Shown here: piece by piece, positions 701 through 63,219 of the stretch
Layout: each line of letters opens with the position of its first letter
Position numbering within the stretch: the stretch's first letter is position 1
Virus genome (UHGV): UHGV-0371278
Length of the DNA stretch: 64,000 nucleotides
Source of the DNA: a virus
Direction: 5' to 3' (one strand)
Notes under the pieces: model-generated
What the model was told of the DNA's origin: nothing
The model's database searches: none
Seen by the model: only the letters and a program-made list of their open reading frames with translations
Program-made: the position numbers and the translations under genes

Positions 701-1546
701 ATGGAACAGAAGGACCAGAACGAACAGACCCAAGGCGAAGAGCTGACCAAGGAACAAGCCGCTGCCCTGCGCAAGGCCGAGAAGGCCGCTGAGCGCCAAC
801 GTAAAGAGCGCGAGCGCGCCGAGAAGGCCGAAGCCAAGGCCAAGGAAGCCGAGCAGAAGGAAGCCGAGCGCGCCGAGAAGGCGAAGGAAAAGGCCGCCGC
901 CAAGGAAGCCGAGCGTGCTGAAAAGGCCAAGGCGAAGGAAGCCGAGCAGGCCGAGAAGGCGAAGGCGAAGGAAGCCGAGCGCGAGCAGAAGAAGGCCGAG
1001 AAGGAAGCCGAGCGCGCCAAGAAGGCCGAAGAGAAGAAGGCCGCGCAGGAAGCCCAGAAGGCCGCCCGCGAAGAAGAGCGCAAGCGCCTGGCCGAAGAGA
1101 AGCAGGCAGAGCGCGAGGCCGAGAAGAAGCGTCGCAAGGAAGAGCAGGAAGAGCGCCGCGCGAAGGCCGAAGCCCGCCGCGAAGACCTGAAGTCCAATGG
1201 TTCGCGCCGTCCGCGTGCCACCCACTTCATCCCGACCGGCGACGGCCATGGAACCCCGCAGGCCTTCTCGACTCGCGGCAAGGTGTTTGCTTACATCAAC
1301 GAGCACTGCACCGTTGGTGAGCCGGTCGAAATCGAATCCTTCGGCGAGAAGGTGGCCCACCTGCTGTACGGCACCTCGGTTCGCAGCTATCTGAGCAAGC
1401 TGGAAATCATGGGCTGGGTCGATCTGGTTGCCATCGCTTCGAAGGAAGACGAAGCTGGCCAGGGCGATGACGAGAAGGCCGATGAAGGCCAGGAGCACGA
1501 CGGTGGTGATCAGGGCGCCGACGGTTCCGATGGTGAAGAAGAGTAA
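701..1546 (+). CDS. Lys/Ala/Glu-rich repeat protein (about 10 AEKAKAKEAE-like repeats) with a globular C-terminal domain and an acidic tail
   Basis: ORF with GGAG-type RBS 8 nt upstream; highly repetitive coding nucleotides 780-1190; opposite-strand ORFs are low-complexity poly-Leu artefacts. Confidence 0.55.
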   Translation: MEQKDQNEQTQGEELTKEQAAALRKAEKAAERQRKERERAEKAEAKAKEAEQKEAERAEKAKEKAAAKEAERAEKAKAKEAEQAEKAKAKEAEREQKKAEKEAERAKKAEEKKAAQEAQKAAREEERKRLAEEKQAEREAEKKRRKEEQEERRAKAEARREDLKSNGSRRPRATHFIPTGDGHGTPQAFSTRGKVFAYINEHCTVGEPVEIESFGEKVAHLLYGTSVRSYLSKLEIMGWVDLVAIASKEDEAGQGDDEKADEGQEHDGGDQGADGSDGEEE

Positions 1547-1650: not shown

Positions 1651-2652
1651 ATGATTCCTGATCAGAAAGTCATCATCGTAGGTGCTGGACTCGCCGGACT
1701 GATCGCCGCGCATCGCTTTCCTCAAGCCCAAATCATCGACGCGGCGACGCGTGAGAACAAGGAACGTCACAACGCGCTCTTGCGATTCCGCTCACCAGTC
1801 ATCGGCCAGCTCACCGGCATCCCATTCCGCGAAGTCACCGTACACAAGGCCATCTACATTGACGGCGAGTTCGTTTCTCAGCCGCGCATCGACTACTGCA
1901 ACATGTACTCCAGGAAAGTAACGGGCGGCCTGTCGGATCGGTCCATCTGGAACATGGCGACCGAAAAGCGCTGGATCGCGCCGGCCGACTACTATGAGCA
2001 GCTGGTCGCTAAGCTGGCGAATCGCATCAGCTGGGGAAGGCCTTTCGACGCCTCTTTCTTCCAGTTCCTTCGCCGGCAAGACGATCACGTCAATATCATC
2101 AGCACGGCACCATTCCGCGCAAATCTGGCTGCGGCAGGGCTGGACCTGGGGATCGACCCGTCATTCGGCGAAGGAACCTCCATCGTCGTGAGTCGATACA
2201 AGCTTTCCATTCCTTGTGATGTCTTCCAGACGGTGTATTTCCCTGGTCCCGAAGTGGGAACGTTTCGAGCGTCCATCACCGGCGACACCCTTATCGTCGA
2301 ATCCGTTACTAAGGGCGTCGTGGAGACTGCAGATGGTGAAATCGAAACCATCGAATGGGACAGCAACTGGGACCTGGATGAAGTTTGCTCGGCCTTCGGC
2401 ATCAGGAAGAAGAATCTCATTCCGGACGGCGAGCCGACCGTCCAGACCAAGGGTAAAATCATTCCGCTCGGTCGCGACGAGCGCGAATCCATGATCTGGA
2501 ATCTCACCCATGAAGCCGGCATCTTCTCGCTCGGTCGGTTCGCGACCTGGCGAAACGTCCTTCTGGACGATCTGGTTTCGGACATGGACGTCATCGAGCG
2601 CCTGATGACTTCTTCGTCTTATCAGAAGGCCAAGAAGATGTTCGTGAAATAA
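1651..2652 (+). CDS. FAD/NAD(P)-binding Rossmann-fold oxidoreductase-like protein
   Basis: N-terminal VIIVGAGLAGLIAA dinucleotide-binding GxGxxG motif; AGGAA RBS 9 nt upstream of ATG at 1651 (ORF track start 1627 less likely). Confidence 0.5.
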   Translation: MIPDQKVIIVGAGLAGLIAAHRFPQAQIIDAATRENKERHNALLRFRSPVIGQLTGIPFREVTVHKAIYIDGEFVSQPRIDYCNMYSRKVTGGLSDRSIWNMATEKRWIAPADYYEQLVAKLANRISWGRPFDASFFQFLRRQDDHVNIISTAPFRANLAAAGLDLGIDPSFGEGTSIVVSRYKLSIPCDVFQTVYFPGPEVGTFRASITGDTLIVESVTKGVVETADGEIETIEWDSNWDLDEVCSAFGIRKKNLIPDGEPTVQTKGKIIPLGRDERESMIWNLTHEAGIFSLGRFATWRNVLLDDLVSDMDVIERLMTSSSYQKAKKMFVK

Positions 2653-2664
2653 TTTACACAAAGT

Positions 2665-2717
2665 GCTTTACTTCTGAGCCAGGTGAGAGTAGTATTCCCT
2701 CATCGAAACGCGAAACC
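2665..2717 (+). promoter_or_regulatory. phage promoter-family copy (TTTACT -35-like, 17 nt, TAGTAT -10-like, then conserved CATCGAAACGCGAAACC leader)
   Basis: motif shared with copies at 44451, 46604, 50408, 50728. Confidence 0.5.
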
Positions 2718-2741
2718 CTTCAACCAAAAGGAATCGACAAA

Positions 2742-2972
2742 ATGGCCCGCGAAGTAACCTTCTCCACCGACAAAAACACCACCAAGACCTACGCCACCAA
2801 GATCAACCTCGAACGCGCCATCGCCAAGGCCGAATGGCTCGGTGAAAGTGCACGCTACTTCATCCACATGACCGAGGATGGACGCCTGACCCCTGTATTC
2901 CTTCTTAACAGCCTTCCTGAGGGAGCTGGCGCGGTATGGTGCGCCCAGCACGGCTGGAACGTGGTAGGTTAA
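2742..2972 (+). CDS. hypothetical protein
   Basis: first ORF downstream of conserved promoter/leader; RBS aaggaa. Confidence 0.45.
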   Translation: MAREVTFSTDKNTTKTYATKINLERAIAKAEWLGESARYFIHMTEDGRLTPVFLLNSLPEGAGAVWCAQHGWNVVG

Positions 2973-10164: not shown

Positions 10165-11726
10165 AAGCCAAAACCTATCCCGTCAAGGGCATGAAGACCG
10201 AGGCTATGCAGCACCAGTTCAATGCCCTGGAGGCTTCCCTTAACAAAAGGAATTTCGCATACCTGATGGAGCAAGGCACCGGGAAGACATGGACTACTTT
10301 GGCAGACTCAGTTAGGCTCTTCCTGCAAGGAAGGGTTGACGCGCTGCTCATCGTCGCCCCCAAGGGCGTACACACGAACTGGATTCTGCGCGAGATTCCC
10401 ACCCACGTTGCTATCAAGACTCTGTGCGTGGATTGGCGCGGCCGACCGACTTCCAAAAAGGCCAGGGCGCGTCTGGATCGTCTGTATGCCGAGACATTCG
10501 CTGATGAAAAAGTTCTTCGGGTCTTTGCCATAAACGTCGATGCCATCAACCACCAGGCTGGCTATGATGAGGTCGAGCGATTCCTTGATACATTCAAAGT
10601 TTGCGCAATTGTGGACGAGTCAACGAGGATCAAAAACCCACAAGCCAAGCGTGCGAAAAAGATCGTAAAGCTGGGCGAGAAGGCCGTGGCCCGTCGCATC
10701 CTTTCCGGAACTCCTCTGACGCGGGCACCGACCGATTTGTTCATGCAGTTCCAATTCTTGCGGAATGGAATTCTGGGGACTAAATCCTATCGGGCGTTTG
10801 TGGCCGAATTTTCCGTTCTGGTTCCCAGCGACGATCCGCGAATGGTCGCCATCATGCGCAAATTGGATGGGAAGAGTACAGTCCCCCCTCAGCTCGTCGA
10901 GAAAGACGATCTTGGACGACCAGTATTCCGAAATCTCGACAAACTGCGGTCCCTGATCGAGCCACACAGCTTCCGGGTCACGAAGAAAGAGGCATTACCA
11001 TTCCTGCCAGAAAAGGTTTACAAGCGCATATATTTCGAAATGTCGCCTGAGCAAAGGAAGGTTTATCAGCGAGTGGAAGAAGACTACCACTTCGTTCTCA
11101 AGAACGAAGACTTCATGCTGGACGTATCTTTCGATGCTGCGGCAGCGCGTTCGAAGCTCAAGCAAGTTGCATCCGGCTATATCAACGTCTATGGCGAGCC
11201 GGTGATCCTGCCGCCCGAAGACAACCCGCGATTCGCCGTGTTTACTGATCTTCTGGAGGGTCTGCTGGAGGAAGACCAGGAGCGCTCCATCATCATCTGG
11301 GCCATGCGCATTCAGGAAATCGACCAGATCAAGGCGTATCTGGAGGCCAAAGGAATTTCGTTTGGAGCCTATTATGGCGAGACCAAAGAGGCCGAGCGGG
11401 AAAAATTGATCGACGATTTCCAGGCCAAGCGCGTCCAGGTGTTCCTGGGCAACCCGGCCGCTGCTGGGATCGGAATCACGCTCACTGCCGCAGACGTGGC
11501 AATTTACTACACGACCGACGAAGACAACGAGTTGCGGATGCAGTCCGAAGACAGAAACCATCGCATCGGGACCATCAACTCTGTCCTGTACTTCGACCTC
11601 ATCTGTCTGGACTCCATCGACGAGAAAATCCAGGTTAGCTTGGAGTGGAAGCGCAATCTTGCGAGTTATGTCGTCGATGGAGTGTTCGAGGCTGACGTTA
11701 GCACTCGCGACGAATTTAATATGTAA
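10161..11726 (+). CDS. SNF2/Rad54-family DEAD-like helicase
   Basis: motif II IVDESTRIKN, C-terminal helicase domain; ATGA overlap with upstream gene. Confidence 0.8.
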   Translation: MKAKTYPVKGMKTEAMQHQFNALEASLNKRNFAYLMEQGTGKTWTTLADSVRLFLQGRVDALLIVAPKGVHTNWILREIPTHVAIKTLCVDWRGRPTSKKARARLDRLYAETFADEKVLRVFAINVDAINHQAGYDEVERFLDTFKVCAIVDESTRIKNPQAKRAKKIVKLGEKAVARRILSGTPLTRAPTDLFMQFQFLRNGILGTKSYRAFVAEFSVLVPSDDPRMVAIMRKLDGKSTVPPQLVEKDDLGRPVFRNLDKLRSLIEPHSFRVTKKEALPFLPEKVYKRIYFEMSPEQRKVYQRVEEDYHFVLKNEDFMLDVSFDAAAARSKLKQVASGYINVYGEPVILPPEDNPRFAVFTDLLEGLLEEDQERSIIIWAMRIQEIDQIKAYLEAKGISFGAYYGETKEAEREKLIDDFQAKRVQVFLGNPAAAGIGITLTAADVAIYYTTDEDNELRMQSEDRNHRIGTINSVLYFDLICLDSIDEKIQVSLEWKRNLASYVVDGVFEADVSTRDEFNM

Positions 11727-11750
11727 ATCAGTAGCCGTATCAAGGAAGAT

Positions 11751-11775
11751 GCGGCATAATATCTACTCAATACTT
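11751..11775 (+). promoter_or_regulatory. promoter-family copy (GCGGCATAATATCT variant)
   Basis: matches GGCATAATCTCTTCA -10 element of the family. Confidence 0.4.
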
Positions 11776-11813
11776 AGTTCAAGTAAGGGAACATCACTAA
11801 GTTGGAGGCTGAC

Positions 11814-12434
11814 ATGAGCGAGCAAGAATTGGAAGTTCCGGAGTATCTGAAGGACAATGCGCCGGGCGAAATTGACTATTTCGGCGTCATGGATGAAATG
11901 GCAGTCGAAGCTACCGACATTGGCCATCGACTGCTGAACTTGGTGGACAAGGCGTCTCAGCTGGACGGCGAAATCCTCGATTTACAAAAGGCGCTGGCCG
12001 AAAAAGAGGAAGAGCTGAAGACCCTCAAGCGCAACACCATTCCTGAGCTTCTGGAGGAACTCGGCCAGAAGACCACGACTCTGGCTGATGGCCGCACGGT
12101 AAAAGTCGAGCCGAAAGCCATCATTTCCGTCAAGGAAGAGAACAAGTCGAAGTTCTGGAAGTGGCTGGAAGACACAGACAACGACGGCATCATCAAGACC
12201 AAAGTTCTGGCAGAATTCGGTCGCGGAGAAATGGAAGATGCGAAGAAGGCGGCCGAAGCGATCATCGAAGCCGGCTATGACGCCACCATCAACCGCGATG
12301 TTCACTACCAGACCCTCCAGGCGTTCGGTCGCGAGTACCTGGAGAAGGGCGAAGAGTTGCCAGATTTCATCGGCGTGCACGAATACAAAGAGGCCAAAAT
12401 CACGAAACCGAAGGTGAAAAAGAGCAAATCTTAA
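11814..12434 (+). CDS. hypothetical coiled-coil protein
   Basis: GGAGG RBS; internal ATG of ORF 11802. Confidence 0.5.
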   Translation: MSEQELEVPEYLKDNAPGEIDYFGVMDEMAVEATDIGHRLLNLVDKASQLDGEILDLQKALAEKEEELKTLKRNTIPELLEELGQKTTTLADGRTVKVEPKAIISVKEENKSKFWKWLEDTDNDGIIKTKVLAEFGRGEMEDAKKAAEAIIEAGYDATINRDVHYQTLQAFGREYLEKGEELPDFIGVHEYKEAKITKPKVKKSKS

Positions 12435-12444
12435 TATGTAATTT

Positions 12445-12478
12445 GCTTTACTTAGTTGCAACTTCCGTTATTATAAAC
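12445..12478 (+). promoter_or_regulatory. promoter-family copy (GCTTTACT, 17 nt, ATTATA)
   Basis: -35/-10-like hexamers with 17-nt spacer upstream of 12523 gene. Confidence 0.45.
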
Positions 12479-12522
12479 CCACAGTTAGCGATAACTGAAA
12501 TTCGACAAACAAGGAGCCTAAC

Positions 12523-13422
12523 ATGGCTGGTAAGAAAACCGAAACTTCCGAAGCAACCGAAGAAACCAAGGCCGTAGCAGTTGCCACCGGTGGCGGCGCC
12601 GTCGCGACTACCGAAGTTCCCGACTTCATGGATTTGGGATCGTATGACGGCGCAGGCTTCGAAGGCGCCGATGCCGAGTCCTATGCCATCCCCTTCATCC
12701 AGGTTTTGCAGAAGATGTCTCCCCAGGTCGATGAAGATGACCCGAAGTACATCGAAGGCGCGAAGGCCGGCATGTTCCTGAACACAGTCACCGGCAAGGT
12801 TTACGACGGCAAGACCGGCCTGCTGATCATTCCGGCCGCGTACCGCCGCGAGTTCATCCGCTGGGCCGGTCGCGAGGCCGAGGGCGGTTTCAAGGGTGCC
12901 ATCAGCGTCGAAGACTTCAAGGAAATGATGAAAGACCCGACCAAGGTGAAGGAAGTCGAAGGACGCCTGTACGCGCCGAACGAAGACGGTTCGGTCAGCG
13001 ACAAGAAGTCTGACTACTTCGCCGACACCCGTGGTCATTACGTCATCGTCATCGATCCTGACACCGGCGATTTCGGCCAGGCTCTGATCTCCCTGTCGTC
13101 TTCGCAGATCAAGGCCTCGAAGAAGCTCATGACCGCGCTGTCCCAGAAAAAGGTTCAGACCCCGCAGGGCCTGCGCACCCCGCCGACTTTCGCCAACCTG
13201 GTCCGTATGACCACCGTAGGCATGTCGAACGACAAGGGCAGCTGGTCCGGCGTCCAGTTCGAGCTGGAAGGCCTGGTGAAGAACCCGGATCACTTCAAGG
13301 CTGCGGCCGACCTGTACAAGTCGTTCGTCGGCGGCGAGGTGAAGGTGGACTACAGCAAGCAGGAACAGCCTCGCAGTGACGCCGGTGGCGTCGGCGATGC
13401 GACCGAAGCCGAAGAGTTCTAA
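12523..13422 (+). CDS. putative ssDNA-binding protein (acidic C-terminal tail ending in Phe, as in T7 gp2.5/bacterial SSB)
   Basis: C-terminus ...GDATEAEEF; AAGGAG RBS; position in replication module. Confidence 0.4.
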   Translation: MAGKKTETSEATEETKAVAVATGGGAVATTEVPDFMDLGSYDGAGFEGADAESYAIPFIQVLQKMSPQVDEDDPKYIEGAKAGMFLNTVTGKVYDGKTGLLIIPAAYRREFIRWAGREAEGGFKGAISVEDFKEMMKDPTKVKEVEGRLYAPNEDGSVSDKKSDYFADTRGHYVIVIDPDTGDFGQALISLSSSQIKASKKLMTALSQKKVQTPQGLRTPPTFANLVRMTTVGMSNDKGSWSGVQFELEGLVKNPDHFKAAADLYKSFVGGEVKVDYSKQEQPRSDAGGVGDATEAEEF

Positions 13423-30492: not shown

Positions 30493-30944
30493 CAGCTAGT
30501 ACCGGCTTTGACCACTTTCTCGAAACGGAATCGATACGGCTTTGTCTTCAGGCGACCGACGCTCGCCACCGCATTGATCAGAACGCCGTCGATTGGAGTG
30601 CCGTTGGTACAGGTGATTTTGCTACCGTCCGGCATCGCCACGACCAGGCCGATGACATCACGAGCACCCGACTTGTCTTTTCCGGTGCGGTTGGCATCCA
30701 GCAGGACGGCCAAGTTGCGCTCGCCCTCGGTGTTCGGGATGACGTTGACGACGACTTCCAGGATGTTGGCCCGGTTCCAAACCACCATATCGCCATTCAG
30801 GCCGACGCCGGTATCGGCCGCAGTGAACGGCGGGCTGTCGATGGGGTCCGCATCATCAGCGAACTCGGTCACGGTGAATCCGTTCGGGAAGGTTCTGCTT
30901 GCCGTGAATTGGGCAATCGAGCCGAACGCAGAAATGTTGATCAT
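30492..30944 (-). CDS. tail tube protein
   Basis: 150 aa directly downstream of sheath gene. Confidence 0.6.
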   Translation of the reverse strand: MINISAFGSIAQFTASRTFPNGFTVTEFADDADPIDSPPFTAADTGVGLNGDMVVWNRANILEVVVNVIPNTEGERNLAVLLDANRTGKDKSGARDVIGLVVAMPDGSKITCTNGTPIDGVLINAVASVGRLKTKPYRFRFEKVVKAGTS

Positions 30945-38339: not shown

Positions 38340-38870
38340 GTCGTGGACTATGGCTGTATTATATACGCAGGACATCCAAGGGTAAATAAGCGGAACAATA
38401 ATTAGATGTAGCCGCGACTGTTAATTTACACTAGAATCTGTATTGTGATCTAATTACCGGATTTCCTCAGCCGCGAAACTGGTAACTTGGTTTCGGAAAT
38501 TTGACGGGATTTGTCTAAGCCTACTGCCGCAAGACTTTCAATCTTTAAACTAATCCAAATTACCAATTTACCAATTAAAAATTGAATTTCAATACGTATA
38601 TAGCATATAGATTGACGTTATATTATAACGTTCCTTATAGATGGATTCTATTAGAACGCTACTCCTAATTTCTCATGCTATATACTTTTGCAGCATGCGG
38701 CGAAATCGGAAATTAGGAATTTAGCATGTTAAAGCCTTGCGGCAGTAGGCTTTCCAAATTACCGCTATTTCCCCAGAAACGGTAATTTGCGGCTATCCGG
38801 ACCCGAATTTTTATTCAGAATCCGGATTTTCGCGGCATCATCAGCCGAAAGCAATCAGGATTGAGACGCC
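38340..38870. repeat. noncoding element A: AT-rich core flanked by a perfect 15-bp inverted repeat (gcctactgccgcaag 38519-38533 / cttgcggcagtaggc 38746-38760), contains a 17-bp palindrome acgttatattataacgt (38625-38641)
   Basis: no ORFs; homologous to element B at 56630-56900. Confidence 0.6.
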
Positions 38871-44298: not shown

Positions 44299-44436
44299 AT
44301 GACTATTGCGACAGTTATGCTGAGTATGATTACAACGACGGCGCTGAGCATGGGTTCAAGATCGGCAGCGACATTTATTGATTGCCTGTGACCCGACGAA
44401 CGGTAGTGCGAAAGTGCTACCGTTTTTCCATTTCTG

Positions 44437-44463
44437 GCGTATAGTCAGCTCATCGAAACGAAC
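44437..44463 (+). promoter_or_regulatory. promoter-family copy (TATAGT ... TCATCGAAACGAAC)
   Basis: shared leader motif. Confidence 0.45.
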
Positions 44464-44484
44464 TTTCCAAACAGGAGAATCGAT

Positions 44485-45414
44485 ATGAACGCAGCAGCCA
44501 CCTTCAGCGGTTTCGACGATCTGGAATCCGAAATTGGATCCATCGAAATCTCGTCCGAAAAGCCCGCCACTCTGGAAGATGCGTCCATGGGTGCCAAAGA
44601 GAATCCATTCAAAGCGGTCAAGATGTACCGCGAAAAATGCATGAAGTGCGCAGGCACTGGAATATATCGCGGACCTTCCTCCTATGGGCACCAGTGCTTC
44701 GCCTGCGGCGGCGTCGGCTACAAAGAGTACAAAACCAGCCCCGAAGCACGCGCCAAGAGCCGGTCGAAGGCGGCTGAGAAGCGCCAGCAGAAACGCATGT
44801 CGGCCTTTGAGGCGAAACAAGCCAGCATCGCCAAGTTCGAGCAGGATCACCCGGACATCATCGAATGGTGGAGCGACAACAATTTCAGTTTCGCCTGCAG
44901 CCTTCGCGATTCGCTGTATCAGTGGGGTCGCCTGTCCGACAACCAGATTGCCGCCGCGAAACGCTCCATCGAGAGTCTGGCTAAGCACCGCGAAGAGCAA
45001 AAGGCGAAAGTCGAGGCTCTTCCGACCCTGGACACTTCCGGCATCGAAGAGGCTTTCGATAAGGCCAAAAATTCCGGCATCAAAAGCCCGAAGCTGCGCC
45101 TGGCCGGCGAAGGCGAAGACCCGTTGCTTGTGGTGATCAAAGAAGCGAGCGTAAACAGCCGCAACTACGGAAGCTTGTACGTCATCGGCGATGTGTACCT
45201 GGGCAAGATCACTGGCGGCAAGTTCATCAAAAGCCGCGACTGCACCGACACTGAGAACGAAGAGATTCTGAAGATGTTCGAAAGGCCAATGGAATCGGCA
45301 GTCGCCTACGGTCGGAAGACTGGTCAATGCTCCTGCTGCGGTCGCGAGTTGACCAACCACGCATCCATCGAAATGGGAATCGGCCCTATCTGCGCCGGAA
45401 AGTTCTTCGGATGA
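44485..45414 (+). CDS. DnaJ-type zinc-finger (CxxCxGxG x2) protein
   Basis: CMKCAGTG...CFACGGVG and C-terminal CSCCGRE...PICAGK. Confidence 0.5.
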   Translation: MNAAATFSGFDDLESEIGSIEISSEKPATLEDASMGAKENPFKAVKMYREKCMKCAGTGIYRGPSSYGHQCFACGGVGYKEYKTSPEARAKSRSKAAEKRQQKRMSAFEAKQASIAKFEQDHPDIIEWWSDNNFSFACSLRDSLYQWGRLSDNQIAAAKRSIESLAKHREEQKAKVEALPTLDTSGIEEAFDKAKNSGIKSPKLRLAGEGEDPLLVVIKEASVNSRNYGSLYVIGDVYLGKITGGKFIKSRDCTDTENEEILKMFERPMESAVAYGRKTGQCSCCGRELTNHASIEMGIGPICAGKFFG

Positions 45415-46119: not shown

Positions 46120-46557
46120 ATGAAGAAATTCTGTATCGACATCACCAATGGTCTGGCCGGCTTCATCATCTGGGGCGGCGCCATCGTCCTAGCGGCTTCC
46201 GTCTTCATCATCGGTCCGCTGGCGCTCCTGCTGACCGGCGCCTGGGTCGTTTGCACGGCAGTGGTGTTCGCACTCTGGTTCGCCGTCGCCGGCATCTACG
46301 AAGAGTCGCAAAAGCAGACCGAGTATTTGAAATCCATAGCATCTATCCAGGCACGCGAGCGCGGCGCCGGCTTTGGTCCAGAAGACTCCGGGCCAAGCAC
46401 CAGCGCTCCGGCGAATCCGGTAGAGCCAAAACTCAGCCACCCCAAGCTGAAGCCTGGCGCACAATTGGCCTCTGCAGTTGTGTTCTTCGCAGTTATCGTC
46501 GTTGTCCTGGCCGCAGGCGACTGGATCTGGAACTATTTCCAGGCTCTTACGAAATAA
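46120..46557 (+). CDS. membrane protein (2+1 TM segments)
   Basis: hydrophobic helices. Confidence 0.45.
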   Translation: MKKFCIDITNGLAGFIIWGGAIVLAASVFIIGPLALLLTGAWVVCTAVVFALWFAVAGIYEESQKQTEYLKSIASIQARERGAGFGPEDSGPSTSAPANPVEPKLSHPKLKPGAQLASAVVFFAVIVVVLAAGDWIWNYFQALTK

Positions 46558-46568
46558 TGGAAGAAAAT

Positions 46569-46620
46569 GCTTTACTCCACTCTGGATGAAGGCAGAATAG
46601 CTCCATCGAAACGCGAAACC
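46569..46620 (+). promoter_or_regulatory. promoter-family copy
   Basis: GCTTTACT ... CATCGAAACGCGAAACC. Confidence 0.5.
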
Positions 46621-46641
46621 TTCAAACAAAAGGAACCGACC

Positions 46642-47421
46642 ATGACCGACCAGAACGAATTCACTCCTGAAGCCATCGAGAAGGCGAAAGATCGCATTCG
46701 CAAGCTGACCGCAATGGCGGCCGACTCGTCCAGTCCGCACGAAGCGGCCATCGCGGCCGAGCGGGTGAAGAAGTTAAAGGACAAATATGATCTTCACGAC
46801 TTCGAAGCGACCGGCGAGATTCGCGAAGAATTCGACGAGCAAATTGCTACCCGTTACTATTCCGCAATCCCGAACTGGATGAAGTTCTTCTCGGTGGCCG
46901 TGGCGACGTACAATGATTGCATCATGGATTTCGTCGGCGGCATCAACAATCACCGAGCATCGGCTAAGGCGTCCAGGAGCGCTCGCGACGGCAGCACCAC
47001 CAAGCGCTGGGGTCATGCCGTTCGATTTAAAGGCTACAAATCTGACGTTGAGCTGGCGGTAAACATGTTCAACTCCCTGGTCGATGCAGTAGACCGTCTG
47101 TGCCGGGAATATCAGAAGGCTCAAGGTTTCGAGCGGTTCAACGTCAAGGTCGCCGCGCAATTTAAGCTCGCCGCGACCCAGGAAATCAGCTATCGCCTCC
47201 AATCCATCACCCGGAAACGTATGGAGCTGGTTTCTTCGGCCGGAACGTCTCTGGTGGTGGTTAAGGAAGCTGCGGTCCACGAACATTTCGGCGATCCGGG
47301 TTACAAGAAGTCGAATGTTACCAAACTCATGCGTCTGGACGACAGCGACGGTCGGCGCGCCTACACTGCCGGGACCAATGCCGGTCGCAACATGGAAATC
47401 GTTCGGTCGGTGGAGGATTAA
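46642..47421 (+). CDS. DUF2786-like N-terminal domain protein
   Basis: N-terminal KAKDRIRKLTAMAADSSSPHEAAIAAERVKKL pattern. Confidence 0.45.
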   Translation: MTDQNEFTPEAIEKAKDRIRKLTAMAADSSSPHEAAIAAERVKKLKDKYDLHDFEATGEIREEFDEQIATRYYSAIPNWMKFFSVAVATYNDCIMDFVGGINNHRASAKASRSARDGSTTKRWGHAVRFKGYKSDVELAVNMFNSLVDAVDRLCREYQKAQGFERFNVKVAAQFKLAATQEISYRLQSITRKRMELVSSAGTSLVVVKEAAVHEHFGDPGYKKSNVTKLMRLDDSDGRRAYTAGTNAGRNMEIVRSVED

Positions 47422-50271: not shown

Positions 50272-50372
50272 TCTAATCAATCCGGTGTTAGCAATAGGTC
50301 GAGTATATCGACGCCGCAACAGACGGTCGAGCACAACCGTTCGTCGGTGAAAATAATTTTCTCACTCAGACA

Positions 50373-50426
50373 CTTTACTTCCATTCTGACCAACGGCATA
50401 ATCTCTTCATCGAAACGAACAAACAC
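50373..50426 (+). promoter_or_regulatory. promoter-family copy (TTTACT, 17 nt, CATAAT, CTCTTCATCGAAACG)
   Basis: consensus-like. Confidence 0.55.
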
Positions 50427-50441
50427 CTGGAGGGTAAGACG

Positions 50442-50600
50442 ATGAACGCAAACCAGCAAATAGAAGCATTCTTCCTGGCTCGCAAAGCGGAAGGGTGCGG
50501 CAATAGCAGAGCCTTGGATGCGACCGTCGAGCACTTCGCACAATACAACCCTATGTACGTGCGGACTCACATTCGCCACTGCGCGCTTTGGGATACCTAA
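50442..50600 (+). CDS. small protein (52 aa), not in ORF track
   Basis: GGAGGG RBS 8 nt upstream; downstream of promoter copy. Confidence 0.35.
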   Translation: MNANQQIEAFFLARKAEGCGNSRALDATVEHFAQYNPMYVRTHIRHCALWDT

Positions 50601-50691
50601 TCAACATTCGGATGCGGACACGCCTTCCATGGGAGGAAATATTCCTGACGAACAGACCGCTCGTCCACTTTGAGAAATATTTCACAATTCT

Positions 50692-50744
50692 GCTTTACTT
50701 CCATTCTGAATAGCGTCATAATCTCTTCATCGAAACGCGAAACA
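50692..50744 (+). promoter_or_regulatory. promoter-family copy
   Basis: GCTTTACTTCCATTCTGAATAGCGTCATAATCTCTTCATCGAAACGCGAAAC. Confidence 0.55.
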
Positions 50745-50767
50745 CTCCAAAACAGAGGAACGCAGAA

Positions 50768-51019
50768 ATGACCAAATCCAAATGGAACATCGGCAGAAAC
50801 GACACCATCGCAGTCGAGGCCGTAAACAGCCGCGAAGACTTCCGCTGGAATGGCAAGATTCGCGTCATCCACTACAGCGCCGGTCAAATCGTCAACATCA
50901 TCGAGTTCTATCACCACGACCTGGACTGGGCGATCAAGAATTTCGGCATCAAGCTCAAGGCCATCTCCAAGGGCCTGGAAATCCTCCACACCTGCTACTT
51001 CGGGAAGTATGTCAAGTGA
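50768..51019 (+). CDS. hypothetical protein
   Basis: first ORF after promoter. Confidence 0.45.
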   Translation: MTKSKWNIGRNDTIAVEAVNSREDFRWNGKIRVIHYSAGQIVNIIEFYHHDLDWAIKNFGIKLKAISKGLEILHTCYFGKYVK

Positions 51020-52522: not shown

Positions 52523-52849
52523 ATGACCATGGTAGGCCCGGCTGGCAAGCGCTACTGGCTTCGGTATGAAACCAGATACTGGGAGTGTCTTGACGGACAA
52601 ACCCTGCGGCTGGTCTTCGTCATCAACGGTCGCCGGTACGAGGTCAATCGACGAGTGAATGTCGACATCCTGTCCAGTCGGCGCAGGTTTGAATCTTTCG
52701 GCCGAGTCCTGGCAAGGATGGAAATAAGCTTGTGGTTCGCAGTGTGCGAGCAAGAAGGTCCATGGCGCGGTAGCGTAGCCATAAGCGATACCGCACTTTG
52801 GTTCCACCTGACGGGAGAATTGGTACACAAATGCTTTACTCGGCGGTGA
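52523..52849 (+). CDS. hypothetical protein
   Basis: adjacent start. Confidence 0.4.
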   Translation: MTMVGPAGKRYWLRYETRYWECLDGQTLRLVFVINGRRYEVNRRVNVDILSSRRRFESFGRVLARMEISLWFAVCEQEGPWRGSVAISDTALWFHLTGELVHKCFTRR

Positions 52850-52880
52850 GAATCATGGCATAATCTCTTCACCGGCTGAG
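52834..52880 (+). promoter_or_regulatory. promoter-family copy (variant leader)
   Basis: GCTTTACT ... GGCATAATCTCTTCACCGG. Confidence 0.45.
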
Positions 52881-52914
52881 AAGTCGGACCCGAAGTCCAA
52901 AAAGGAATCTCGAA

Positions 52915-53139
52915 ATGTACAGAACTCCCTCGTCCAAATTCACGTTCATCTGCAACGGACTCGCCCAGAGTACTGAAGTGACGGTCCTGCTCCGGACGCA
53001 GAAACCGGAAGACGTATGGGTGGTGGACGAAGCTCCATCCGCTGATCTGATTCGTATTCACGAACGCAGCAACAAACGCCGTCGCCGTACCATCAAAATC
53101 ATCGACGTGGACTCCGTGTCCATCCTTCACAAACGTTAA
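52915..53139 (+). CDS. hypothetical protein
   Basis: AAGGAA RBS. Confidence 0.4.
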   Translation: MYRTPSSKFTFICNGLAQSTEVTVLLRTQKPEDVWVVDEAPSADLIRIHERSNKRRRRTIKIIDVDSVSILHKR

Positions 53140-54730: not shown

Positions 54731-54772
54731 GTAGACACGCAGCATCGACCTAGGCATAATCTCTTTCAACGG
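54731..54772 (+). promoter_or_regulatory. promoter-family copy (TAGACA, 17 nt, CATAAT variant)
   Basis: TAGGCATAATCTCTTTCAACGG. Confidence 0.45.
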
Positions 54773-54822
54773 GGCGACAAACTGAAGCCCGAACGAAATC
54801 TTCCAAAACAGAGGATCGCAAA

Positions 54823-55437
54823 ATGACCAACTCCATCAAAACCTTCGGCGACATCCAGAACGCAGAAATGAAAGAACTGGTCGCCTTCTACAACGCCCAC
54901 AACGCCGATGCGACTGTCAAGCGCTTCTCCGACCGCAAGACCGCCGAGCGTCGCTGCCTCGCCATCCTGAACGCTCTGCCGGCCGAGGAAGAAGCCTTCC
55001 AGGAAGAGGAAGTCCCGGCAAAGGTTTACAAAACCCGCACTTCCAAGAAGAAGGAAGAAGAGAAGGCCGAGGAAGAAAATCTGAAGCCGGAGGAAGAGGT
55101 CACCGAAGAGGAAGCGCTGGAAGAAATCCGGAAGATGCGCGAAGAGGCGAAGAAAGCGCCAGAGAAGGTCAAAGAGACCAAAGACCTGTCAGCAGCCATC
55201 GCCAACTCCTGGAAAGACACGGAAGTCGCCCGCAAGCGCACCCAGCGTCATGGCGTGGCTGTAACCGTCAAAGGTAAACGCGGTGAGTTCCGGTCCACCA
55301 ACGCAGCATTCATCGAGTTCGGCCTGCCCTCTTCGAAGCACATCCGCTTCCGCATGCAGCTGAAGGGGGCCGGCAAATTGACCTTCGAGCACGAAGGCGT
55401 CAAATACAACTTCGAAATCATCGAAGCTGGAGAATAA
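54823..55437 (+). CDS. hypothetical protein with acidic KEEE-rich central region
   Basis: GAGGA RBS; bracketed by promoter and terminator. Confidence 0.5.
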   Translation: MTNSIKTFGDIQNAEMKELVAFYNAHNADATVKRFSDRKTAERRCLAILNALPAEEEAFQEEEVPAKVYKTRTSKKKEEEKAEEENLKPEEEVTEEEALEEIRKMREEAKKAPEKVKETKDLSAAIANSWKDTEVARKRTQRHGVAVTVKGKRGEFRSTNAAFIEFGLPSSKHIRFRMQLKGAGKLTFEHEGVKYNFEIIEAGE

Positions 55438-55604: not shown

Positions 55605-56177
55605 CTAAATGGGGTTGGCGCGGTCTTCCTCGGTCGGTTCCGGCGTCGGGGACGGGAAATCGCCCTCTTCGCCGTTCTGTACATAGCCATTGGCTTCGGC
55701 CGCTGCAGCGACGGTCGCGGTTTGAGCCTCGGCTTCCGATGCGTAGAAGTCTGCCAATCCGCGACCGATCCTGGTTTTGCCAGACTCGTCAACGAACGTG
55801 ATTTCGGCCAGAACGTTCAATTCCTTGATGGCCGACAGACGGCTGGAGTCCTTGACAGTGGGATCGCGAACCATCTGGAGAAGTTCGTGAAGCGCCGTCT
55901 TTGGGTTCCACAGATCTGCTGTTCTGGTCGCATTCAGCTTGGCCTTGAACTGCTTGCGATAGTACGGGTTGGACTCCATTGCGAAGATGCGAGCCTGGGC
56001 CGGTCCGTCCATATGCTCTTCGCCCCAGATCGCCCGGAAGACCCGCCAGGAGCTATAGCCTTGAACGCGCAGGTCGATGTACAGATCGAAACGCTTCTGG
56101 TTGATCGCCGCGAACTGCGGATCAGCGAATTCTTGTGGCGTGACTAAATCGTCGGGTCTGTAGGATTTGGCGGTCAT
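55605..56177 (-). CDS. helix-turn-helix-like DNA-binding protein, possible terminase small subunit
   Basis: size and WNPKTALHELLQM...SRLSAIKELNVL region reminiscent of small terminases; first ATG of a GTG-led ORF; location is atypical (5 kb from TerL). Confidence 0.3.
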   Translation of the reverse strand: MTAKSYRPDDLVTPQEFADPQFAAINQKRFDLYIDLRVQGYSSWRVFRAIWGEEHMDGPAQARIFAMESNPYYRKQFKAKLNATRTADLWNPKTALHELLQMVRDPTVKDSSRLSAIKELNVLAEITFVDESGKTRIGRGLADFYASEAEAQTATVAAAAEANGYVQNGEEGDFPSPTPEPTEEDRANPI

Positions 56178-56261: not shown

Positions 56262-57094
56262 TGAGTATGGCGCGATTGTACTATGGGGCCAGGGAGCACG
56301 TCTATGGGCTGCTGGTGGTTGGCCTGTAGGTCTGGGTGGGTTTGATGGTGAATGAGTGTTAGGTGGTGTTATAGGATGTTATATGGGCGGTCCGCTGGCG
56401 AGTGAGGATCGGATTGGCTGGTGGCGGGCGATGGTGGCGGTGAGTGTTTGGATTGAATGTTAAATCGAATGTTAGGAATATGTCCAGATGAGCGATTCTG
56501 CCTTGTGGCCAAATTTCCGGTTCCGCTCGTCGAGTTTTGGTCACTGCCGCTTAGTCCGCCGTGGTGTTGCCGCTGCCCATGGTTTGGAAGGACGGAAGTT
56601 TCCGGCGACCCTGCCGCGAGTTGAGCGGAATCGGAAACTTGACTGGTAGTGTACAGGCTTAGTGCCGCGAGGCTTTCAAACCTAAAACCATAACAAATTA
56701 CCAAATTCCCATTAATTTTATTAATTTTAAAGATAGGTAACGTACGTGATAGATTTTTTCTATTAGGATTGTGCAATCGATTTTCGCTGTAGAATAGTTT
56801 TAAACCATGCTCGGAAAACTGGGAATTCGGGAAAACGGCCGCAAACCCACGCGGCAGTAGGCCTCCCGAATTCCCAGTCAGAATAGCAATCCAGGAATTT
56901 GCGGCTATTTCCCACAAAAAATCCACCTCAAACCCACAATTTCTCAACATTTCACGCAAAATCCAACCATCATACACTCCAGACCAATACCGAAAATCTA
57001 TCAATTCCCCACAATACACCGCCGCCACAACACCCTAATTCCCACATAGCTTTCGAACCTCACCCGTTCACAGGCTAAATTAATGTTCTCCGCG
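56262..57094. repeat. noncoding element B: strand-skewed iteron-like GT-rich (56300-56490) and CA-rich (56911-57055) arms around an AT-rich core bounded by imperfect inverted repeats gcttagtgccgcgag (56657-56671) / cgcggcagtaggc (56850-56863); candidate replication origin
   Basis: about 830 bp without credible ORF; homologous to element A; adjacent to primase genes. Confidence 0.5.
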
Positions 57095-63053: not shown

Positions 63054-63219
63054 TTAATGTATCCTCTGTTTTGGAGGGCAGTGCAGGGCGGCGCTAGTAT
63101 CGGCCACTTTCCTGCCGAAGTAAAGTTGGATTAAATTCGCTCGCTTTGGCGAGTCAGCTGATAGTATACTCTTCCTGCGCAGAGGTAAAGCATAACTGTA
63201 CGTTATAAAGGAACATTCG
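63054..63219. promoter_or_regulatory. divergent promoter region
   Basis: 166-bp spacer between divergent genes; TAGTAT-like hexamers; small CTCGC-tttg-GCGAG palindrome. Confidence 0.35.

What the first reader, a model, noticed from the sequence alone, without database searches (positions are those of the whole stretch)
50373..50744. Phage-specific promoter plus conserved transcribed leader, at least 9 copies, all on the plus strand
A composite motif recurs upstream of plus-strand genes: a -35-like GCTTTACT, about 17 nt, then a -10-like CATAAT/TAGTAT, then within 5 nt the block (C)TCTTCATCGAAACG(C)GAAAC.

Copies:
- 2665-2717
- 44437-44463
- 46569-46620
- 50373-50426
- 50692-50744
- variants at 11751-11775, 12445-12478, 52834-52880 and 54731-54772

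The block downstream of the -10 would be the first 15-20 nt of each transcript. That suggests a conserved 5' leader, possibly an RNA element or a binding site for a phage regulator, in addition to a shared promoter class. Each copy sits in front of a block of translationally coupled small genes.
Basis: seen in the sequence. Interest (0 to 1): 0.6.

Follow-up and report, generated by a model that had tools for sequence, protein, structure and literature searches.

The report
Host-type early promoter cassettes with shared leader
The repeated motif is real, but it is a family of ordinary host-RNA-polymerase (sigma-70) early promoters of a PB1-like Pseudomonas phage, already mapped in a close relative, each followed by a shared unstructured 5' leader whose first nine bases are oddly invariant and which also marks where early-gene modules are swapped or deleted between related phages.

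Summary
The window is almost a whole Pbunavirus (PB1-like Pseudomonas aeruginosa myovirus) genome. All nine claimed sites exist. Each is the orthologue of a transcription start site mapped by ONT-cappable-seq in Pbunavirus 14-1 (Putzeys 2024).

Five sites carry the block. CATCGAAACG occurs 5 times, all on the plus strand, against 0.36 expected.

"Phage-specific" is wrong. The promoters are sigma-70 type. A -49..+1 fragment of the 14-1 orthologue, without the block, is strongly active in uninfected E. coli and P. aeruginosa.

New here:
- ATCGAAACG (+1..+9) is 100% identical among paralogues. The -10 is 67% and the spacer 41%.
- The leaders are unstructured and match no Rfam family.
- Across 11 phages the cassettes are the joints of mosaic early-gene modules, like T4 PeSLs. 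This phage carries a ~1.7 kb deletion between two cassettes.
- The same 16-mer follows sigma-70 promoters in two unrelated phages.

What the block itself does is unresolved. The promoters are known; the cassette's recombination role is a new member of a known kind.

The parts
2642..2744 (+). Cassette 1, the 14-1 P028 orthologue. A/T-rich upstream region 2642-2664; -35 GCTTTACT 2665-2672; -10 TAGTAT 2690-2695; discriminator TCCCTC; +1 A at 2702; block ATCGAAACGCGAAAC 2702-2716; Shine-Dalgarno AAAGGAA; ATG at 2742. It heads the thymidylate synthase / PNK / exonuclease / DNA polymerase / helicase operon.
44398..44487 (+). Cassette 2, the 14-1 P009 orthologue. Intrinsic terminator hairpin 44398-44425 overlaps a weak -35; -10 TATAGT 44440-44445; +1 A at 44452; block variant ATCGAAACGAAC; ATG at 44485. 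The downstream gene is the gp12 homologue, which carries DUF6011. This is the only copy with a PeSL-like terminator-plus-promoter layout.
   Evidence: (14-1 T004)
46545..46644 (+). Cassette 3, the 14-1 P006 orthologue. -35 GCTTTACT 46569-46576; -10 CAGAAT 46593-46598; +1 A at 46605; block 46605-46619; ATG at 46642. The downstream gene encodes a DUF2786/DUF7168 protein.
   Evidence: annotated as a MEME promoter in the phiKT28 GenBank record
50350..50444 (+). Cassette 4, the positional orthologue of 14-1 P001. -35 CTTTACT 50373-50379; -10 CATAAT 50397-50402; discriminator CTCTTC; +1 A at 50409; block variant ATCGAAACGAACAAAC; ATG at 50442. The downstream ORF (52 aa, 50442-50600) is an accessory gene that varies between phages.
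50665..50770 (+). Cassette 5. The promoter core is of the Pa-A 'cassette 2' type. -35 GCTTTACT 50692-50699; -10 CATAAT 50717-50722; +1 A at 50729; block 50729-50743; ATG at 50768. The recombinant junction lies in codons 3-4 of the first ORF. From there on the cargo is the gp88-type block of translationally coupled small genes.
52834..52917 (+). Promoter of the same class without the block, the 14-1 P048 orthologue. -35 CTTTACT; 18-nt spacer; -10 CATAAT 52859-52864; expected +1 at 52871; the orthologue of the mapped 5' end is at 52880. The leader starts with the hairpin CCGGCUGAGAAGUCGG. ATG at 52915.
54731..54825 (+). Promoter without the block, the 14-1 P043 orthologue. -35 TAGACA 54732-54737; -10 CATAAT 54755-54760; +1 A at 54768; a 5' hairpin leader; Shine-Dalgarno region CCAAAACAGAGGA shared with cassette 5; ATG at 54823.
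12445..12525 (+). Promoter without the block, the 14-1 P024 orthologue. -35 GCTTTACT; 16-nt spacer; -10 TATTAT 12469-12474; +1 A at 12481; a 5' hairpin at +2; ATG at 12523.
11735..11816 (+). Promoter without the block and without a good -35, the 14-1 P025 orthologue. -10 CATAAT 11755-11760; +1 at about 11767; ATG at 11814.

Best explanation
These are paralogous, portable early-expression cassettes of about 100 bp in a Pbunavirus.

Anatomy. Each cassette has an A/T-rich upstream region, a sigma-70-type promoter ((G)CTTTACT, 17 nt, then CATAAT / TATAGT / CAGAAT / TAGTAT), and a 6-nt pyrimidine-rich discriminator ending in C. The start is at A. A 36-42 nt A/C-rich, unstructured leader follows, beginning AUCGAAACG(CGAAAC) and ending in a Shine-Dalgarno sequence.

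Shown by orthology to 14-1:
- The host RNA polymerase with sigma-70 fires these promoters without any phage factor.
- The block is the first 15 nt of the mRNA.
- The block is not needed for promoter strength.

Shown here:
- +1..+9 is the most conserved part of the cassette.
- Because the cassettes are repeated, they are the crossover points at which accessory early-gene modules are inserted, replaced or deleted between related phages.
- The 320-bp spacing of the two copies at 50373 and 50692 results from such a deletion.

Inferred. The block acts after promoter recognition, as the fixed 5' end of an unstructured, efficiently translated early leader or as a short tag read by some factor. Selection and recombinational homogenisation together keep it uniform. 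I cannot say which post-initiation step it serves.
For: Identity of the genome: Pbunavirus, about 94% identical to Pa-A and Ab28.

Promoter function:
- The TSS of 14-1 P001, P006, P009, P028 and P049 fall on the A of cA|TCGAAACG. All nine sites map to 14-1 TSS; eight are typed sigma70 and P048 is untyped.
- The P001 -49..+1 oligo fragment is strongly active in uninfected E. coli and PAO1.
- The sigma-70 consensus scan hits the sites.
- The region -60..-38 is 64% A+T against 45% for the genome.

Block:
- It is never found without a promoter and never on the other strand.
- Mean pairwise identity among the five paralogues: +1..+9 1.00, -10 0.67, -35 0.47, spacer 0.41.
- The leaders are unstructured: MFE -2 to -8 kcal/mol, and z >= 0 for four of the five copies (the 50729 copy gives z = -1.2).
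- No Rfam family matches.

Recombination:
- In 11 phages, 6 upstream types, 3 promoter cores and 10 cargo types give 14 combinations. One upstream-plus-promoter pair is joined to 6 different cargos.
- Breakpoints lie right after +9, after +15/16, or at the -35.
- The window's 50692 cassette equals Pa-A cassette 2 up to codon 4 of the first ORF and Pa-A cassette 3 cargo thereafter.

Outside the genus: Serratia phage MyoSmar, a distant relative, has its own differently sequenced cassette family.
Against: - The TSS and reporter data come from 14-1, not from this phage. The reporter tested only one of the five block-bearing promoters.
- Perfect invariance of nine bases is more than a generic unstructured leader needs. 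It is not what promoter-escape studies predict: YG steps such as the CG at +3/+4, +8/+9 and +10/+11 tend to slow escape (PMC5961368).
- Nine to 15 identical bases is short for homologous recombination, so homogenisation alone is a weak explanation.
- Some cassettes in other phages tolerate C3U, or replacement of everything after ATCGA.
- Early timing of these promoters was not checked against time-resolved data.
Confidence: 0.75

Rival explanations
1. The block is a sequence-specific regulatory tag. It would be either a DNA operator at +1..+15 or a 5'-terminal RNA motif. A phage-encoded or host factor would read it to switch off, stabilise or process all early transcripts together at the early-to-middle transition.
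For: - +1..+9 is invariant among paralogues whose -10, -35 and spacers differ.
- The block is dispensable for promoter activity, so its conservation needs another reason.
- Its position is strictly fixed at +1.
- It has a direct-repeat form, CGAAAC-G-CGAAAC.
- The identical 16-mer sits in the same register after sigma-70 promoters in two unrelated phages: L013 and Aeromonas phage phiAS5. That is 2 of 6 independent non-Pbunavirus families, against 1 of 117 bacterial chance hits and 0 of 92 viral hits that match only the 14-mer.
Against: - No candidate binding protein was identified. The first genes after the cassettes have no DNA- or RNA-binding Pfam domain.
- There is no palindrome.
- No complementary RNA is encoded in the genome.
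- Four promoters of the same strand lack the block.
- Variants with C3U, or with the part after +5 replaced, exist in related phages.
- The two outside phages each show one copy in the DNA held.
- MyoSmar lacks the block.
Confidence: 0.2
2. The block has no function of its own. It is simply part of a recently duplicated promoter segment and is kept identical by gene conversion between copies.
For: - The cassettes clearly recombine.
- The 50373 and 50692 copies are 91% identical over 45 nt, spacer included.
- Each lineage has its own cassette sequence, as MyoSmar shows.
- The reporter works without the block.
Against: - Spacers of the paralogue classes have diverged to near-random identity (0.37-0.41) while +1..+9 stays at 1.00.
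- Conversion tracts confined to 9-15 nt are implausible.
- The block recurs in unrelated phages.
Confidence: 0.15
3. The block is an initially transcribed sequence optimised for start-site choice and fast promoter escape by the host polymerase. On this view it is a downstream part of the promoter itself.
For: - It lies at +1..+15 and is purine-rich (10 of 15).
- It starts with AU, as do the strong early coliphage promoters T7 A1 and A3. T7 A1 starts AUCGAGAGGG and T7 A3 starts AUGAAACGACAG.
- Initially transcribed sequences can change promoter output more than 10-fold (PMC5961368).
Against: - The P001 fragment ending at +1 is already among the strongest promoters tested.
- The block holds three CG steps, a class reported to slow escape.
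- Escape shows no strict sequence motif, yet the block is invariant.
Confidence: 0.15
4. One reading: a phage-specific promoter class that needs a phage-encoded sigma factor or cofactor.
For: Older genome papers speculated that conserved intergenic motifs of PB1-like phages might be sites for a phage sigma factor (PMC3008698).
Against: - The hexamers and spacing are sigma-70-like.
- SAPPHIRE classes eight of the nine 14-1 orthologues as sigma70; P048 has no assigned type.
- P001 is active in uninfected E. coli and P. aeruginosa.
- The promoters of 14-1 that do look phage-dependent carry a different motif, CTGGG near the TSS, and are inactive in uninfected cells.
Confidence: 0.03

Closest known systems
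Sigma-70-like host-dependent promoters of Pbunavirus 14-1 (P001, P006, P009, P024, P025, P028, P043, P048, P049; Putzeys et al. 2024, PMC10914365, Table S3)
   Same: They are direct orthologues: same positions, same hexamers, same strand logic. The TSS are mapped to the base, and one promoter (P001) is validated in vivo in two hosts.
   Different: That study analysed only -50..+1. It therefore did not describe the conserved +1..+15 block, the shared leader, or the two leader classes (unstructured versus 5' hairpin). This phage also has a different number and arrangement of cassettes between the terminase gene and the gp88 block.
PeSL (promoter-early stem-loop) cassettes of T4-like phages (Arbiol et al. 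2010, PMC2839356; Comeau et al. 2014, PMC4122927)
   Same: Both are repeated small cassettes with an A/T-rich upstream region, a strong sigma-70-like early promoter, a Shine-Dalgarno sequence and a start codon. Both sit in front of small genes of unknown function in plastic regions. In both, indels and replacements between close relatives are bounded by the cassettes.
   Different: PeSLs are defined by an integral stem-loop terminator or attenuator, which only the 44398-44487 copy has. PeSLs have no reported invariant transcribed block. Mini-circle formation is unknown here. The phage lineage and host also differ.
Morons of temperate phages (a gene with its own promoter and terminator inserted between two genes; from my own knowledge, not checked here)
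   Same: Both are autonomously expressed accessory genes that are added to or removed from a conserved backbone.
   Different: These cassettes sit in a lytic phage's early region, often head multi-gene operons, and share one promoter-leader sequence.
T7 early promoters A1 and A3
   Same: Both are strong host-polymerase early promoters that start with A. A1 transcribes AUCGAGAGGG and A3 transcribes AUGAAACGACAG, which resemble AUCGAAACG.
   Different: The shared stretches are only 5-7 nt long and were noticed after the fact. There is no evidence of common descent or of a shared mechanism.

Membership tests
Host sigma-70-dependent promoter | -35 and -10 hexamers resembling TTGACA and TATAAT, 16-18 nt apart | tested here: met
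   TTTACT-17-CATAAT and similar pairs score 9-10 of 12 at 50374, 50694, 52835 and 54732. The other copies use TAGTAT, TATAGT or CAGAAT. The 44452 and 11767 copies have a poor -35.
Host sigma-70-dependent promoter | Transcription starts 6-8 nt downstream of the -10 | tested here: met
   Shown by orthology only. The 14-1 TSS from ONT-cappable-seq map onto the window 7 nt after the -10. The exception is P048, which is about 16 nt after it. Not measured in this phage.
Host sigma-70-dependent promoter | Active with host polymerase alone, with no phage factor | not testable with these tools
   Published for one orthologue: the 14-1 P001 -49..+1 fragment is strongly active in uninfected E. coli and PAO1. 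The other copies are untested.
Phage-specific promoter (needs a phage RNAP, sigma factor or cofactor) | Sequence unlike the host consensus, and inactive in uninfected cells | tested here: not met
   The sequence is sigma-70-like and the P001 orthologue is active without phage. The CTGGG-type TSS of 14-1 behave as phage-dependent, and they are a different motif.
PeSL-type mobile regulatory cassette | Repeated strong sigma-70-like early promoter with an A/T-rich upstream region, a Shine-Dalgarno sequence and a start codon | tested here: met
PeSL-type mobile regulatory cassette | An integral stem-loop that acts as terminator or attenuator | tested here: not met
   Only the copy at 44398-44487 overlaps a terminator hairpin (14-1 T004). 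The other four have none, and their leaders are unstructured.
PeSL-type mobile regulatory cassette | Insertions, deletions and replacements between close relatives are bounded by the cassettes | tested here: met
   14 upstream/promoter/cargo combinations in 11 phages. A deletion junction lies inside the 50692 cassette and its first ORF. Only one genome region and 11 genomes were examined.
PeSL-type mobile regulatory cassette | Excision of cassette-bounded mini-circles | not testable with these tools
   This needs PCR or deep sequencing of infected cells or virions.
Structured cis-regulatory RNA leader (riboswitch, attenuator or other Rfam family) | A conserved secondary structure, or a match to a curated RNA family | tested here: not met
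   No Rfam match in the whole window at gathering thresholds. Leader MFE is -2 to -8 kcal/mol; four of the five are no more stable than shuffles and the 50729 copy is marginally so (z = -1.2).
Sigma-70-dependent promoter-proximal pause / Q-type antitermination site | A -10-like element (TAnnnT) in the initially transcribed region | tested here: not met
   Direct reading: ATCGAAACGCGAAAC contains no TAnnnT. No Q-like gene was looked for.

The most novel reading that the evidence does not exclude
The invariant AUCGAAACG(CGAAAC) at the 5' end of five early transcripts is a sequence-specific tag, either a DNA operator at +1 or a 5'-terminal RNA motif. A so far unknown host or phage factor would read it to control the whole early regulon after initiation. 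Its exact recurrence after sigma-70 promoters in a T4-like Aeromonas phage and in an unrelated metagenomic phage would then point to a host-side reader shared among gamma-proteobacteria.
Probability: 0.15. Interest if true: 0.6.

Novelty: new member of a known kind. Interest (0 to 1): 0.3.

Why it matters
The promoters themselves are known, so the practical gain is modest. This phage's early transcription units can be annotated base-accurately by transfer from 14-1.

Two points go beyond the literature I could read.

1. A 9-15 nt transcribed block is more conserved than the sigma-70 hexamers, yet it is dispensable for promoter activity. That makes it a cheap, well-defined target for testing post-initiation control of early phage genes. 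It is also relevant to using these strong promoters as Pseudomonas expression parts.

2. Pbunaviruses are among the most widely used therapeutic P. aeruginosa phages. They appear to shuffle and lose early accessory genes at these cassettes, as T4-like phages do at PeSLs. This would help explain the variable genome ends seen in every Pbunavirus comparison and predicts where engineered inserts will be unstable.

Tried and rejected
- Rfam scan of the whole window: nothing at gathering thresholds. tRNA and tmRNA scan: none.
- Folding of the leaders: four of the five have no structure beyond shuffles; the 50729 copy is marginal (z = -1.2). The leader is therefore not a riboswitch or attenuator.
- Search for a complementary 'anti-block' that could be a phage sRNA partner: none with up to 1 mismatch to the last 11 nt or up to 2 to the full 15 nt.
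- Promoter-less copies of the block in front of internal genes, which would indicate a translation enhancer: none. One exact ATCGAAACG 9-mer at 56085 lies inside a minus-strand gene and looks like chance.
- Deep conservation: the distant relative Serratia phage MyoSmar has sigma-70 early promoters but a different discriminator and leader family.
I used it as a control: 1 of 117 hits has promoter context. No P. aeruginosa match appeared in the rows returned.
- Wider family in phages: a scan with the 14-mer prefix was cut at 120 rows and added no new promoter-context case outside Pbunavirus (0 of 92).
- Pfam on the first genes behind the cassettes: DUF6011, DUF2786/DUF7168, or nothing. No regulator was evident.
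- Considered by eye and dropped: a boxA/nut site (about 7 of 12 matches to the rrn boxA), Hfq (ARN)n or Crc CA motifs in the block, an NAD-capping consensus (-1 and +2 do not fit), and IHF or Fis sites. These comparisons rest on my memory of the consensus sequences.
- Ceyssens et al. 2009 (Environ Microbiol), the first PB1-like comparative paper, could not be read.

Full report
**What the window is.** A 12-kb stretch around the finding matches 303 phage records, almost all Pseudomonas phages of the genus Pbunavirus (PB1-like myoviruses of about 66 kb). The best matches are Pa-A and vB_PaeM_C1-14_Ab28 at about 94% identity. Mapping the 50 published transcription start sites (TSS) of Pbunavirus 14-1 onto the window places 48 of them. 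The window is therefore almost a whole, circularly permuted genome, in the opposite orientation to the 14-1 record.

**Checking the observation.**
- CATCGAAACG occurs five times, always on the plus strand. Shuffles give 0.36 expected and none of 100 reaches five.
- The 15-mer ATCGAAACGCGAAAC is exact at 2702, 46605 and 50729. The copies at 44452 and 50409 continue ATCGAAACGAAC.
- An unbiased repeat search recovers the 45-nt family (D4).
- The four 'variants' (11751, 12445, 52834, 54731) share only promoter features.

**What the sites are.** Putzeys et al. 2024 (PMC10914365; Table S3 in the bioRxiv supplement) mapped primary 5' ends in 14-1 by ONT-cappable-seq.
- Each of the nine sites is the orthologue of one of their TSS: P028, P025, P024, P009, P006, P001, P049, P048 and P043.
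- Eight are typed 'sigma70' by the Pseudomonas promoter predictor. P048 is untyped, and its 5' end lies about 10 nt further downstream than expected.
- For the five block-bearing promoters the TSS is exactly the A of cA|TCGAAACG.

**Why 'phage-specific' is not right.**
- The hexamers ((G)CTTTACT, 17 nt, then CATAAT, TATAGT, CAGAAT or TAGTAT) meet a sigma-70 consensus scan.
- The region -60..-38 is 64% A+T in a 45% A+T genome.
- The paper reports that 14-1 P001 has 'potent activity' in uninfected E. coli and P. aeruginosa.
- The oligonucleotides used for that construct span only -49 to +1. The promoter therefore works with host polymerase alone, and the block is not needed for that activity.
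- The 14-1 start sites that do look phage-dependent carry a different motif (CTGGG about 5 bp from the TSS) and were inactive in uninfected cells.
- Older genome papers had seen conserved intergenic motifs in PB1-like phages and speculated about a phage sigma factor (PMC3008698). The phiKT28 GenBank record already annotates the P006-type site as a MEME-derived promoter.

**Anatomy of the cassette.** I aligned 50 distinct copies from 11 Pbunaviruses. The high-information stretches are the -35 GCTTTACT, the -10, the last bases of a 6-nt pyrimidine-rich discriminator, and above all cATCGAAACG. Downstream the leader stays A/C-rich, reaches a Shine-Dalgarno sequence (AAAGGAA or AGAGGA), and reaches the start codon at +34 to +41.

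Mean pairwise identity among the five copies in this window:

| Segment | Identity |
|---|---|
| +1..+9 | 1.00 |
| -10 | 0.67 |
| discriminator | 0.50 |
| -35 | 0.47 |
| +10..+15 | 0.45 |
| spacer | 0.41 |
| upstream region | 0.31 |

- The block-bearing leaders are unstructured: MFE is -2 to -8 kcal/mol. Four of the five are no more stable than shuffles; the 50729 copy is marginally so (z = -1.2).
- Three of the block-less promoters (12481, 52871, 54768) instead start with a hairpin at +2.
- No Rfam family matches anywhere in the window.
- The block never occurs without a promoter, on either strand.
- No complementary sequence is encoded in the genome.

**Recombination joints.** The region between the terminase gene and the gp88-type gene block holds two to four cassettes, depending on the phage. 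I classified the DNA upstream of each cassette, the promoter core, and the DNA downstream.
- This gave 6, 3 and 10 types respectively, in 14 combinations. The same upstream-plus-promoter pair is joined to six different cargos.
- Sequence comparison puts the switches right after +9 (ATCGAAACG|AAC... versus |CGAAAC...), after +15/16, or at the -35.
- In this window the 50692 cassette is identical to Pa-A's second cassette from the -35 to the fourth codon of its ORF. It then continues as the cargo of Pa-A's third cassette.
- That is the footprint of a roughly 1.7-kb deletion by recombination between two cassettes, and it explains why the two copies in the reported interval are only 320 bp apart.
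- This behaviour matches the PeSL cassettes of T4-like phages (PMC2839356, PMC4122927). PeSLs, however, are defined by an integral stem-loop, which only the 44398-44487 copy has.

**Beyond the genus.**
- Serratia phage MyoSmar, a distant PB1-like phage, has sigma-70 early promoters followed by its own, different shared discriminator and leader. The block is therefore lineage-specific rather than ancient.
- A scan of IMG/VR for CATCGAAACGCGAAAC found the Pbunavirus contigs and a few coding-sequence families. It also found two unrelated phages in which the 16-mer sits in the same register after a near-consensus sigma-70 promoter:
  - a 47.7% G+C metagenomic contig (L013: TTGACA, spacer, TACAAT, CTACT, then the 16-mer);
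  - Aeromonas phage phiAS5, which is T4-like (L017).
- As controls, 1 of 117 matches in bacterial genomes has promoter context. None of 92 further viral matches to the 14-mer prefix outside Pbunavirus has it.
- Two of six independent families is unlikely by chance (about 1e-3). Both scans were truncated, however, and each outside phage shows a single copy in the DNA held.
- The T7 early promoters start AUCGAGAGGG (A1) and AUGAAACGACAG (A3). This resemblance was noticed after the fact and I do not rely on it.

**How it most likely works.**
- Shown, by orthology and published assays: host sigma-70 holoenzyme starts at the A, and the block is transcribed and is not required for promoter strength.
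- Shown here: the block is the most conserved element, the leader is unstructured, and the cassettes are mosaic joints.
- Inferred: the block acts after promoter recognition, as the fixed 5' end of an open, translatable early leader or as a short tag for a factor. Its uniformity reflects selection helped by recombination between copies.
- A pure promoter-escape role is unattractive. The fragment ending at +1 is already very strong, and CG steps are reported to slow escape (PMC5961368).
- Pure hitch-hiking is unattractive because the spacers have randomised while +1..+9 has not.
- I put about 0.75 on the cassette description as a whole, and well under 0.5 on any single account of what the block does.

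**Verdict.** The invariant transcribed block and the PeSL-like recombination role are, as far as I could read, undescribed for this genus but belong to known kinds of element. Interest is modest (0.3).

Noticed in passing
window 38493-38592 and 56631-56730 (read on the minus strand): Two A/T-rich segments of about 100 nt are 70% identical. Each has short TTGGTAA(A)TTTGG direct repeats followed by AAAG(C/T)CT(C/T)GCGGCA... Position 56676(-) is the orthologue of the mapped 14-1 TSS P040, which starts a roughly 500-nt untranslated transcript ahead of the gp76 homologue. The other copy lies upstream of the head-protease promoter and has no reported TSS. This could be a second promoter-plus-leader family, iterons, or a non-coding RNA.
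   Followed up: partly
window 12481, 52871, 54768 (+): Same-strand sigma-70 promoters that lack the ATCGAAACG block begin their transcripts with a 5'-terminal hairpin at +2 (MFE about -12 kcal/mol over 60 nt). The block-bearing leaders are unstructured. There are therefore two leader classes, which might differ in mRNA stability.
   Followed up: partly
L013 (IMGVR_UViG_3300032312_002125, minus strand around 10725-10740) and L017 (Aeromonas phage phiAS5, NC_014636, around 24.3 kb): The exact 16-mer CATCGAAACGCGAAAC follows near-consensus sigma-70 promoters in the same register in two phages unrelated to Pbunavirus. In each it precedes a small gene with weak, sub-threshold helix-turn-helix matches.
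   Followed up: partly
window 310, 1420, 3315, 12867, 15162, 42638, 47013, 53159, 53593, 53740, 55122 (+): The orthologues of the 14-1 'other motif' start sites (CTGGG about 5 bp upstream of the 5' end) map onto this phage, most of them with the motif intact. They lie mostly inside genes and were inactive as promoters in uninfected cells in the published assay. They could be phage-dependent promoters or RNA processing sites.
   Followed up: no
window 750-1180 (+), inside ORF 701..1546: 33-nt tandem repeats encode a Lys/Glu/Ala-rich stretch (AKEAEKAEK-like). A reported 14-1 5' end (P033) falls inside the repeat.
   Followed up: no
L166/L167 (Serratia phage MyoSmar), e.g. record positions 30821, 59737, 62178 (+): This distant relative has its own family of near-identical early cassettes: TTGAC(G/T), 17 nt, TATTAT, TTA(A/T)(C/T)TC..., then AACCTTTAAGAGGATTT. 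Lineage-specific homogenised promoter-leader cassettes may be common in this phage group.
   Followed up: partly
window 63088-63178 (both strands): A compact divergent promoter region, orthologous to 14-1 P036, P037 and P038, has overlapping back-to-back sigma-70 promoters. Two of them have the same CTTTAC -35 on the minus strand.
   Followed up: no
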